Origin: Escherichia coli O157:H7
Lineage (GTDB): Bacteria > Pseudomonadota > Gammaproteobacteria > Enterobacterales > Enterobacteriaceae
NCBI RefSeq assembly: GCF_013167455.1
Contig: NZ_CP038328.1
Direction: 5' to 3' (one strand)
Length of the DNA stretch: 64,000 bases
In this document: in pieces, positions 15,001-18,000 of the stretch
Position numbering within the stretch: the stretch's first letter is position 1
How the letters are laid out: each line of letters opens with the position of its first letter
Made by a program: the position numbers

Positions 15001-18000
15001 TCACCGATGATGCCAAACGAATCTGGTGCAGATTTTGTCTGCATCTCTTCGATACGTTCAGCCATCGCAGCACACTCTTCAAAGTTGCTTAATGCTTTTC
15101 GCTCCCATTCGGCGCATTGTTTTTCCAGTTCTGCTATGCGCTTACTTCCATCCGCGATTACTCCCTCGTAATATTCACGCTGCTCGTTGAGTTTTGATTT
15201 TGCTGCTTCAAGCTCAACACGCAGCTTCCCAACCGTAAGCGCAATCCCCTCGTTCTCCTGGTCGCGGCGTTTGATGTATTGCTGGTTTCTTTCCCGTTCA
15301 TCCAGAAGCGCCAGCGCAACATTTGGATTAAAGGCAGCAATAAATTCAGCGTTTGCATAAGCCTGAACATCTGTTTCAACCAGGCAGTTAACATGACATT
15401 CCGCAATCACACCACCGGGTTCTCCTTTCCATTTTTGGCAAACAAAAACTCCTGTTAAATTGCCGTGCTGGTTAACAGATGTATGCCCTACGATGTAGCT
15501 TCCTTTAGTTGCTTTCTCTGCCTTTTCACGCAGTGCCTGATAATTAATTTCGCTCACTTCGAACCTCTCTGTTTACTGATAAGCTCCAGATCCTCCTGGC
15601 AACTTGCACAAGTCCGACAACCCTGAACTGCCAGGCGTCTTCGTTCATCTATCGGATCGCCACACTCACAACAATGAGTTGCGGATACAGTCTGGTAGTT
15701 CAGGCGACGCATTTTTATTGCTGTATTGCGCTGTAATTCTTCAATTTCTGATGCTGAATCAATGATGTCTGCCATCTTCCATTAATCCCTGAATTGTTGG
15801 TTAATACGCTTGAGGGTGAATGCGAACAATAAAAAAGGAGCCTGTAGCTCCCTGATGATTTTGCTTTTCATGTTCATCGCTCCTTAAAGACGCCGTTTAA
15901 CATGCCGATCGCCAGACTTAAATGAGTCGGTGTGAATCCCATTAGCGTTACCGTTTCGCGGTGCTTCTTCAGTACGCTACGGCAAATGTCATCGACGTTT
16001 TTATCCGGAAACTGCTGTCTGGCTTTTTTGATTTCAGAATTAGCCTGACGGGCAATGCTGCGAAGGGCGTTTTCCTGCTGAGGTGTCATTGAACAAGTCC
16101 CATGTCGGCAAGCATAAGCACACAGAATATGAAGCCTGCTGCCAGAAAAATGCATTCTGTTGTTGTCATGCCGGGTCTCTCTCGTTTGCTTCTGCTTTCG
16201 CCGCCATCATTTCCAGCTTTTGTGAAAGGGATGTGGCTAACGTATGAAATTCTTCGTCTGTTTCTACTGGTATTGGCACAAACCTGACTCCAATTTGAGC
16301 GAGGCTATGTGCCATCCCGATACTCGTTCTTAATTCAACAGGAGATGCTTTGTGCATACAGCCCCTCGTTTATTATTTATCTCTTCAGCCAGCCGCTGTG
16401 CTTTCAGTGGATTTCGGATAACAGAAAGGCCGGGAAATACCCAGCCTCGCTTTGTAACGGAGTAGACGAAAGTGATCGTGCCTACCCGGATATTATCGTG
16501 AGGATGCTTCATTACCATTGCTCCCCATATACAAAACCAATTTCAGCCAGTGCCTCGTCCATTTTTTCGATGAACTCCGGCACCATCTCGTCAAAACTCG
16601 CCATGTACTTTTCATTCCGCTCAATCACGACATAATGCAGGCCTTCACGCTTCATGCGCGGGTCATAGTTGGCAAAGTACCAGGCATCTTTTCGTGTCAC
16701 CCACATGCTGTACTGCACCTGGGCCATGTAAGCCGATTTTATGGCCTCGAAACCACCGAGCCGGAACTTCATGAAATCCCGGGAGGTAAACGGGCATTTC
16801 AGCTCAAGGCCGTTGCCGTCACTGCATAAACCATCGGGAGAGCAGGCGGTGCGCATACTTTCGTCGCGATAGATGATCGGGGATTCAGTAACATTCACGC
16901 CGGAAGTGAACTCAAAGAGGGTTCTGGCGTCGTTCTCGTACTGTTTTCCCCAGGCCAGAGCCTTAGCGTTAACTTCCGGAGCCACACCGGTGCAAACCTC
17001 AGCCAGCAGGGTGTGGAAGTAGGACATTTTCATGTCAGGCCACTTCTTTCCTGATCGGGGTTTTGCTATTACGTTGTGAATTTCTGAAGCTGTGATGACG
17101 CCGAGCCGTAATTTGTGCCACGCATCATCTCCCTGTTCGACAGCTCTCACGTCGATCCCAGTACGCTGCAGGATAATGTCCGGTGTCATGCTGCCACCTT
17201 CTGTTCAGTGGCTTTTTGTTTCAGGAATCCAAGAGCTTTTACTGCTTCGGCCTGTGTCAGTTCTGACGATGCACGAATGTCGCGGCGAAATATCTGGGAA
17301 CAGAGCGGCAATAAGTCGTCATCCCATGTTTTATCCAGGGCGATCAGCAGAGTGTTAATTTCCTGCATGGTTTCATCGTTAACCGGAGTGATGTCGCGTT
17401 CCGGCTGACGTTCTGCAGTGTATGCGGTATTTTCGACAATGCGCTCGGCTTCATCCTTGTCATAGATACCAGCAAATCCGAAGGCGAGACGGGCACACTG
17501 AATCATGGCTTTATGACGTAACATCCGTTTGGGATGCGACTGCCACGGCCCCGTGATTTCTCTGCCTTCGCGGGTTTTGAATGGTTCGCGGCGGCATTCA
17601 TCCATCCACTCGGTAACGCAGATCGGATGATTACGGTCCTTGCGGTAAATCCGGCATGTGCAGGATTCATTGTCCTGCTCAAAGTCCATGCCATCAAACT
17701 GCTGGTTTTCGTTGATGATGCGGGACCAGCCATCAACGCCCACCACCGGAACGATGCCGTTCTGCTTATCAGGGAAGGCGTAAATTTCTTTCGTCCACGG
17801 ATTAAGGCCGTACTGGTTGGCGACGATCAACAATGCGATGAACTGCGCATCGCTGGCATCACCTTTAAATGCCGTCTGGCGAAGAGTGGTGATCAGTTCC
17901 TGTGGGTCGACAGAATCCATGCCGACACGTTCAGCCAGCTTCCCTGCCAGCGTTGCGAGTGCTGTACTCATCCGTTTTATACCTCTGAATCAATATCAAC

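What the first reader, a model, noticed from the sequence alone, without database searches (positions are those of the whole stretch)
15554..15775. TraR/DksA-like zinc-finger protein in the early-left operon
The 73-aa CxxC...CxxC protein resembles phage TraR-like proteins, which are known to bind the RNA polymerase secondary channel and reprogram host transcription.
Basis: partly seen in the sequence, partly recalled or inferred. Interest (0 to 1): 0.25.

Follow-up and report, generated by a model that had tools for sequence, protein, structure and literature searches.

The report
Prophage copy of lambda orf73 (TraR-like)
This is the well-known lambdoid-phage gene orf73, a 73-residue TraR-type zinc-finger protein whose lambda version (69 of 73 residues identical) has already been shown to bind E. 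coli RNA polymerase and shut down ribosomal RNA promoters, so the finding is correct but ordinary.

Summary
Window 15554..15775 (minus strand) is an intact ATG-started 73-codon ORF with a CxxC-N17-CxxC zinc finger, the only such ORF in all six frames of the window. It passes Pfam PF01258 (zf-dskA_traR) and matches phrog_54 at 6e-26. A profile of its homologs finds F-plasmid TraR in the PDB at 5e-10. An AlphaFold model has TraR bound to RNA polymerase (6n57_M) as its best structural match.

It differs from phage lambda Orf73 at four residues (H27Y, A29T, I30V, V49A). It keeps every hallmark tied to function in TraR and λ Orf73: D3xxD6xA8, C35/C38/C56/C59, R46/R47 and E64. pN/pS among 23 natural alleles is 0.10.

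The gene lies in the conserved exo-xis block of a stx-negative lambdoid prophage at mlrA/yehV of E. coli O157:H7. It is on the leftward strand, about 3.1 kb downstream of a candidate pL.

RefSeq already names this protein a TraR/DksA family regulator, and 61% of complete E. coli genomes carry the gene.

Verdict: already known, low interest. The one local oddity is that this prophage has no N antiterminator, yet two terminator-like hairpins lie between pL and orf73.

The parts
15554..15775 (-). orf73 coding sequence (73 aa plus stop): TraR-type C4 zinc-finger protein. It is identical to VT1-Sakai H0065 and to RefSeq WP_000763383.1.
15752..15769 (-). Codons 3-8, the D3-I-I-D6-S-A8 (DxxDxA) motif at the start of the N-terminal helix. 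This is the part that reaches the RNAP active-site region in TraR.
   Evidence: Read from the sequence. D6 and A8 are invariant and D3 is at least 90% conserved in 44 homologs. D3N and D6N inactivate λ Orf73 (PMC9239242).
15599..15673 (-). Codons 35-59, the C4 zinc finger C35xxC38-N17-C56xxC59. It also holds two extra cysteines, C36 and C53, as in λ Orf73.
   Evidence: the extra cysteines are discussed in PMC9239242
15635..15640 (-). Codons R46-R47, which align with TraR R48 (rim-helix contact) and R49 (β'Si3 contact).
   Evidence: Alignment to TraR. R46 is invariant and R47 is at least 90% conserved. Roles of these residues are from PMC9239242.
15569..15607 (-). Codons 57-69, the predicted C-terminal helix. 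It includes invariant E64 (TraR E66). This is the region that contacts βSi1 in TraR.
   Evidence: AlphaFold model with helix H57-69; invariant E64; PMC9239242 and PMC8614690
15554..15557 (-). GTGA overlap: the orf73 stop codon TGA overlaps the GTG start of the 315-aa ead/Ea22-like gene (14610..15557). This suggests translational coupling.
   Evidence: the same junction occurs in lambda
15825..15853 (-). Terminator-like hairpin (GGGAGCC/GGCUCCU stem, 3-nt loop, U6 tail) 50-78 nt upstream of the orf73 ATG. It is the same element as the predicted t2 of λ and Φ24B.
   Evidence: dG -15.4 kcal/mol, z -3.3; PMC4195576 Table 4
16426..16448 (-). Second terminator-like hairpin, inside the orf60a/orf63 overlap. 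It is the same as the predicted t1 of λ and Φ24B.
   Evidence: PMC4195576 Table 4
15874..18555 (-). Upstream genes of the same leftward transcription unit: orf61-like (15874..16155), orf63/DUF1382 (16166..16357), orf60a/DUF1317 (16330..16512), exo (16512..17189), bet (17186..17971), gam (17977..18273), kil (18349..18555).
18823..18865 (-). Candidate pL/oL. It has TTGACT-17-TATTGT (18861..18833) overlapped by four copies of the heptamer GCTATTG/CAATAGC. The heptamer recurs in the cI-cro intergenic region at 21596.
   Evidence: inference; no transcript data

Best explanation
The ORF is the orf73 gene of a lambdoid prophage, a member of the TraR branch of the DksA/TraR family.

Inferred mechanism, by orthology with λ Orf73 and F TraR:
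- After prophage induction, the gene is transcribed leftward with kil-gam-bet-exo and the other exo-xis genes.
- The 73-residue protein inserts its N-terminal helix, carrying D3xxD6xA8, into the secondary channel of host RNA polymerase.
- Its Zn-finger globular domain sits on the β' rim helices and β'Si3 (R46, R47).
- Its C-terminal helix contacts βSi1.
- Without ppGpp and without binding DNA, this destabilises open complexes at rRNA and ribosomal-protein promoters.
- Host ribosome synthesis and growth are thereby cut back and phage yield is raised.

Shown here: the gene's existence, purifying selection, family membership by sequence and by fold, conservation of all functional residues, and synteny. 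Inferred from published work on a 95%-identical protein: RNAP binding and the promoter effects.
For: - Family and fold: Pfam PF01258 scores above its gathering cutoff, and phrog_54 gives 6e-26. A profile of 44 homologs hits TraR 5w1s at E=5.2e-10 over residues 1-69. The AlphaFold model (pLDDT 81) has TraR in the RNAP complex, 6n57_M, as its top Foldseek hit (prob 1.00, TM 0.57, 71 columns), followed by YbiI, TraR 5w1s and DksA.
- Orthology: 69/73 residues are identical to λ Orf73.
- The four differences: positions 27, 29, 30 and 49 are the common natural polymorphisms. They occur in many combinations among phage alleles, and none is a hallmark residue.
- Conservation: D6, A8, C35, R46, C56, C59 and E64 are invariant in 44 homologs that go down to 58% identity.
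- Selection: pN/pS is 0.10.
- Synteny: the exo-xis gene order is conserved.
- Published biochemistry and genetics of λ Orf73: PMC9239242.
- Published expression data for the λ and Φ24B exo-xis regions: PMC4195576.
Against: - This exact allele (Y27, T29, V30, A49) has not been tested biochemically.
- NCBIfam TIGR02419 (TraR subfamily) scores 55.1 bits, just under its 59.7-bit cutoff.
- The physiological outcome is disputed. PMC9239242 reports that orf73 raises phage yield. The Wegrzyn laboratory classes orf73 as pro-lysogenic and reported reduced yield (PMC8614690; discussed).
- λ Orf73 barely activates the promoters that TraR activates, so 'reprogramming' may be mostly inhibition.
- This prophage has no N gene, and two terminator-like hairpins lie between the candidate pL and orf73. 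How much of the protein is made here is therefore unknown.
Confidence: 0.9

Rival explanations
1. The protein's main role is to block initiation of host chromosome replication (the 'bin' phenotype assigned to λ orf73, ea22, ea8.5 and orf55), through a target other than rRNA-promoter control.
For: PMC9239242 recounts earlier work implicating this gene cluster in blocking host replication initiation. In the window, orf73 is translationally coupled to the ea22-like gene.
Against: [quoted passage not shown] The authors consider the replication effect likely to be indirect, acting through rRNA transcription and supercoiling or through DnaA supply. No sequence feature here points to a second target, and every conserved residue maps to an RNAP contact.
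Confidence: 0.06
2. The gene is intact but effectively silent in this prophage. The prophage has no N antiterminator, and two intrinsic-terminator-like hairpins lie between pL and orf73, so the ORF would be a passenger with no current role in this strain.
For: There is no N-like ORF between the repressor and kil. Hairpins t1 and t2 lie on the coding strand. In λ, mRNA levels drop across t2 (PMC4195576).
Against: Deposited phage genomes of the genus Bievrevirus (4A7 and relatives) share the same N-less early-left layout and keep orf73. The ORF is intact and under purifying selection. In Φ24B, orf73 and ea22 are expressed as strongly as N despite the identical t2.
Confidence: 0.04

Closest known systems
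Bacteriophage lambda Orf73 (Orf2310), exo-xis region
   Same: Both are 73 aa with 69 identical residues. They share the same DxxDxA motif, the same six cysteines, the same ExxRL motif and the same C-terminal helix. The position between orf61 and ea22 is the same, as are the upstream t2 hairpin and the GTGA overlap with ea22.
   Different: There are four substitutions (H27Y, A29T, I30V, V49A), all of them natural polymorphisms. The host prophage lacks N, cIII, ea10 and ral and has a different immunity region. The base just after the U-tract differs (ATTGTT here, ATTATT in λ), which changes the -10 box of the published predicted p1 promoter.
Orf73 of Shiga-toxin phages (VT1-Sakai H0065, 933W L0141, Φ24B 'putative C4 zinc finger protein')
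   Same: The DNA of window 15400-15900 is 100% identical to VT1-Sakai and several Stx1 and Stx2 phages. The exo-xis block is the same.
   Different: The prophage in the window carries no stx genes. STnc100 and AgvB sRNA genes lie downstream of the Q-tRNA region instead. Its immunity region differs from VT1-Sakai beyond kil.
TraR of the E. coli F plasmid (PDB 5W1S, 6N57)
   Same: Both are 73 aa with the same three-element architecture: an N-terminal helix with DxxDxA, a C4 Zn-finger globular domain with the RR pair, and a C-terminal helix with a conserved Glu. TraR is the best sequence-profile match and the best fold match.
   Different: Identity is only about 30%. The window protein has two extra cysteines, and a two-residue gap in the helix-to-finger linker relative to TraR. 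By analogy with λ Orf73, it probably inhibits but hardly activates promoters. It is encoded by a phage early operon rather than a conjugative tra operon.
DksA (E. coli)
   Same: It has the same zinc-finger family (PF01258) and the same RNAP secondary-channel binding site. The DxxDxA motif is functionally equivalent.
   Different: DksA is about 151 aa with a full coiled coil, and it needs ppGpp for full activity. The window protein is half that size and lacks one coiled-coil helix, as TraR does.

Membership tests
DksA/TraR C4 zinc-finger superfamily (Pfam PF01258) | Match to the zf-dskA_traR profile above the gathering score | tested here: met
   37.8 bits against a cutoff of 24.9, residues 33-64
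DksA/TraR C4 zinc-finger superfamily (Pfam PF01258) | Four cysteines arranged as CxxC-N17-CxxC | tested here: met
   C35, C38, C56 and C59. They align with TraR C37, C40, C58 and C61. C35, C56 and C59 are invariant and C38 is at least 90% conserved in homologs.
TraR family (short, ppGpp-independent branch) | Length of about 70-80 aa, with the DxxDxA motif at the extreme N terminus of a single helix rather than at a coiled-coil tip | tested here: met
   73 aa with D3-I-I-D6-S-A8. The model shows one N-terminal helix, residues 5-27.
TraR family (short, ppGpp-independent branch) | Arg pair equivalent to TraR R48/R49 (rim helices and β'Si3) | tested here: met
   R46 and R47 align with TraR R48 and R49 and are conserved
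TraR family (short, ppGpp-independent branch) | C-terminal helix with a conserved acidic residue (βSi1 contact) | tested here: met
   Helix 57-69 in the model. E64 is invariant and aligns with TraR E66.
TraR family (short, ppGpp-independent branch) | NCBIfam TIGR02419 (C4_traR_proteo) at or above its curated cutoff | tested here: not met
   55.1 bits against a cutoff of 59.7. This is a near miss over the full length (1-64 of 64 profile positions), E=8.4e-15. RefSeq still names the protein a TraR/DksA family transcriptional regulator.
TraR family (short, ppGpp-independent branch) | Overall fold like TraR | tested here: met
   The Foldseek top hit is 6n57_M (TraR on RNAP), prob 1.00, TM 0.57, 71 aligned columns, rmsd 4.7 Å. 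The rmsd is similar to the 4.0 Å reported for the free λ Orf73 model against bound TraR (PMC8614690).
TraR family (short, ppGpp-independent branch) | Binds the RNAP secondary channel and inhibits rRNA promoters without ppGpp | not testable with these tools
   Shown for λ Orf73, which is 69/73 identical, in PMC9239242. Not shown for this allele.
Lambdoid exo-xis orf73 orthologous group | Position between orf61 and ea22 in the leftward operon downstream of exo | tested here: met
   Gene order in the window compared with VT1-Sakai, λ and phage 4A7. In 4A7 the ea22 gene is absent, but the orf73 position is kept.

The most novel reading that the evidence does not exclude
In this N-less prophage, orf73 and the ea22-like gene lie behind two intrinsic-terminator-like hairpins, and no antiterminator is encoded upstream. 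They might therefore be expressed mainly from their own promoter just upstream of orf73 (the predicted p1 of Bloch et al. 2014), uncoupled from pL. Oxidative stress could be one trigger. That would make Orf73 a prophage-encoded, ppGpp-independent modulator of host ribosome synthesis that acts in lysogens, rather than only a lytic-cycle factor.
Probability: 0.08. Interest if true: 0.35.

Novelty: already known. Interest (0 to 1): 0.07.

Why it matters
It matters little as a discovery. The gene family, its structure, its mechanism and its phage phenotype are all published. Annotation pipelines already name this exact protein, and 61% of complete E. coli genomes carry a copy. Its residual value is as a correct annotation of an EHEC prophage gene that can throttle host rRNA synthesis during induction. 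It also points to an open detail: the Gourse/Court and Wegrzyn laboratories disagree on whether orf73 favours lysis or lysogeny. N-less prophages like this one could show how the gene is expressed without antitermination.

Tried and rejected
- Chance ORF: rejected on homologs, pN/pS 0.10, and its being the only CxxC-N17-CxxC ORF in the window.
- Anti-phage defence component: PADLOC gave only a meaningless 13-bit hit for Orf73 and nothing for the Ea22-like protein.
- Identity of the prophage with VT1-Sakai: true only from int to gam, with 5 mismatches in 7.6 kb. The sequences diverge completely beyond kil, so VT1-Sakai's N/nutL/pL annotation cannot be transferred.
- Link between the hairpin upstream of orf73 and the classical λ tL3 terminator: the literature search found nothing usable (one search was a malformed query). 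The hairpin does match the predicted t2 of PMC4195576.
- A palindromic operator search found only one perfect copy. The heptamer count was more informative.
- Alignment A2 was made with coordinates that clipped the start codon. It was redone as A3.
- A second TraR paralog in the window, as in 933W: none found.

Full report
**Observation**

Its sequence is MADIIDSASEIEELQRNTAIKMRRLNYQTVSATHCCECGDPIDERRRLAVQGCRTCASCQEDLELISKQRGSK. A regex scan of all six reading frames found it to be the only stop-free CxxC-N15-19-CxxC stretch in the 64-kb window. Its TGA stop overlaps the GTG start of a 315-aa ead/Ea22-like gene, giving a GTGA junction.

**Is it a real gene?**

Yes.
- Pfam PF01258 (zf-dskA_traR) scores 37.8 bits against a gathering score of 24.9.
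- PHROG 54 'DksA-like zinc-finger protein' matches residues 1-71 at E=6.4e-26.
- NCBIfam TIGR02419 (TraR subfamily) matches full length at 8.4e-15, but its 55.1 bits fall just below the 59.7-bit cutoff.
- IMG/VR holds 490 relatives. The best 80 of those loci plus lambda gave 23 distinct DNA alleles but only 10 protein variants.
- Of the variable codons, 16 vary only synonymously, 6 only non-synonymously and one both ways. pS is 0.120, pN is 0.012, and the ratio is 0.10.

**What is it?**

The DNA of window 15400-15900 is 100% identical to VT1-Sakai (gene H0065) and to several Stx1 and Stx2 phages. In phage lambda the same ORF lies unannotated between ea22 and orf61. This is λ orf73. The two proteins differ at four residues: H27Y, A29T, I30V and V49A. 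The genes differ at 11 of 222 bases, 7 of them synonymous. These four positions are the common polymorphic ones, and they occur in many combinations in natural alleles.

In an alignment of 44 homologs going down to 58% identity, the invariant residues are D6, A8, E12, R16, C35, R46, C56, C59, Q60 and E64. D3, C38, R47 and C53 are at least 90% conserved.

A profile of that alignment finds F-plasmid TraR (5w1s, 6n57) at E=5e-10 over residues 1-69, and YbiI at 6e-9. The AlphaFold2 model has mean pLDDT 81 and helices at 5-27, 44-49 and 57-69. Its best Foldseek PDB hit is TraR bound to RNA polymerase (6n57_M, prob 1.00, TM 0.57, 71 columns). YbiI, TraR 5w1s and DksA on RNAP follow.

**Mechanism**

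Gopalkrishnan et al. 2022 (PMC9239242) purified λ Orf73 and reported the following.
- It competes with DksA for RNAP.
- It inhibits rrnB P1 with an IC50 of about 50 nM, and also rpsT P2, without ppGpp.
- It loses activity with D3N or D6N.
- It complements a ΔdksA strain.
- It slows host growth.
- It raises phage yield 3- to 4-fold after mitomycin C induction.
- It barely activates thrABC, argI or rpoH P3, possibly because of its two extra cysteines.

The window protein keeps all the features named there:
- D3xxD6xA8;
- the C4 finger, plus the same two extra cysteines (C36, C53);
- R46 and R47, equivalent to TraR R48 and R49;
- the ExxRL variant of ExxRK;
- E64 in the C-terminal helix.

I therefore infer the same mechanism with high confidence. 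The steps shown here are gene reality, family and fold membership, residue conservation and synteny. RNAP binding and the promoter effects are inferred from the 95%-identical λ protein.

**Context**

The window is E. coli O157:H7 chromosome, 100% identical over 25 kb to several strains. It carries a lambdoid prophage integrated at mlrA/yehV.

The leftward gene order is kil, gam, bet, exo, orf60a, orf63, orf61, orf73, ea22-like, four small ORFs (the last a DUF551 gene), a DUF4222 gene, one further small ORF, xis, int. This is the conserved exo-xis block described for λ, Φ24B and 933W (PMC8614690).

A sigma-70-like promoter, TTGACT-17-TATTGT, lies at 18861..18833. Four copies of the heptamer GCTATTG/CAATAGC overlap it. 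The heptamer recurs in the repressor-cro intergenic region. I take this site as pL/oL, about 3.1 kb upstream of orf73.

Unlike λ and VT1-Sakai, this prophage has no N, cIII, ea10 or ral. The space between the cI-like repressor and pL holds a 535-aa SIR2-family gene. Deposited phage genomes of the genus Bievrevirus (for example 4A7) share this N-less layout and immunity region and also keep orf73.

Two terminator-like hairpins lie on the coding strand between pL and orf73, at 16448..16426 and 15853..15835 (the second has dG -15.4 kcal/mol and z -3.3). Both are identical to the predicted t1 and t2 of λ and Φ24B (PMC4195576). That paper found mRNA dropping across t2 in λ but not in Φ24B.

**Comparison with what is known, and novelty**

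RefSeq already annotates this exact protein (WP_000763383.1) as a TraR/DksA family transcriptional regulator. Megablast finds the gene in 3315 of 5426 complete E. coli genomes, with up to 6 copies per genome.

Deletion phenotypes have been reported for both λ and Stx phages, with opposite conclusions about the direction of the effect.

The finding is correct, but it is already known and ordinary. The only open point specific to this locus is how orf73 is expressed in a prophage that encodes no N antiterminator.

Noticed in passing
window 19143..20750 (-): A 535-aa SIR2-family ORF lies directly downstream of the cI-like repressor gene (20857..21549) on the same strand. This is the position that rexAB occupies in lambda. 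It matches the PADLOC candidate defence family PDC-S25 at E=2e-235 and ThsA-type SIR2 domains at 1e-21. Related phages with the same immunity region carry different cargo in this slot.
   Followed up: partly
window 18556..19142 and 20857..21700: The prophage has no N antiterminator gene and no cIII, ea10, ral or sieB; kil is the first gene after the candidate pL. The heptamer GCTATTG/CAATAGC clusters four times at 18823..18865, over a TTGACT-17-TATTGT promoter-like site, and recurs at 21596 in the repressor-cro intergenic region. These are probably the operators. Deposited Bievrevirus phage genomes (4A7 and relatives) share this layout.
   Followed up: partly
window 15782..15877 (-) and hairpin 15835..15853 (-): A 31-aa ORF (MNMKSKIIRELQAPFLLFAFTLKRINQQFRD) spans the t2 terminator-like hairpin between orf61 and orf73. 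PMC8614690 mentions a 31-aa peptide gene (orf2313) found by ribosome profiling in this conserved λ block, and this may be it. The base after the U-tract differs from λ and Φ24B (ATTGTT against ATTATT), which alters the -10 box of the published predicted p1 promoter.
   Followed up: partly
window 15874..16155 (-), A-run near 16020; lambda L002 3213..3525: The window has a run of six A where lambda has seven. As a result the window reads one 93-aa ORF (RefSeq aa, 15874..16089). In lambda the 61-aa orf61 ends early and the conserved C-terminal part (…ARQQFPDKNVDDICRSV…FKER) is out of frame. Lambda orf61 therefore looks like a frameshifted form of the longer gene.
   Followed up: partly
window 29763..30378: Three tRNA genes (29763..30011) are followed by the sRNA genes STnc100 (30124..30316, +) and AgvB (30317..30378, -). 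This is downstream of the Q antiterminator, where Stx phages carry stx. No stx-sized ORF is present, so this yehV/mlrA prophage is stx-negative.
   Followed up: partly
window 25235..25419: Rfam matches to isrK (25235..25307) and C4 antisense RNA (25332..25419) lie on the plus strand just past the replication genes. Strain MB41-1 has a 1.3-kb IS3-family insertion in this neighbourhood that the window lacks, inferred from a 1313-base offset in the tRNA coordinates.
   Followed up: no
window 14610..15557 (-): The Ea22-like protein is 315 aa, against 182 aa in lambda. It shares the N terminus, the central coiled-coil segment (LLDERERNQQYIKRRDQENE…) and the last residues (GIRIKGE), with extra blocks in between, as described for Φ24B and 933W Ea22.
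   Followed up: no
window 1201..1281 (+): There is an Rfam Peptidase-S11 RNA motif (72.8 bits) immediately upstream of pbpG in the chromosomal flank.
   Followed up: no
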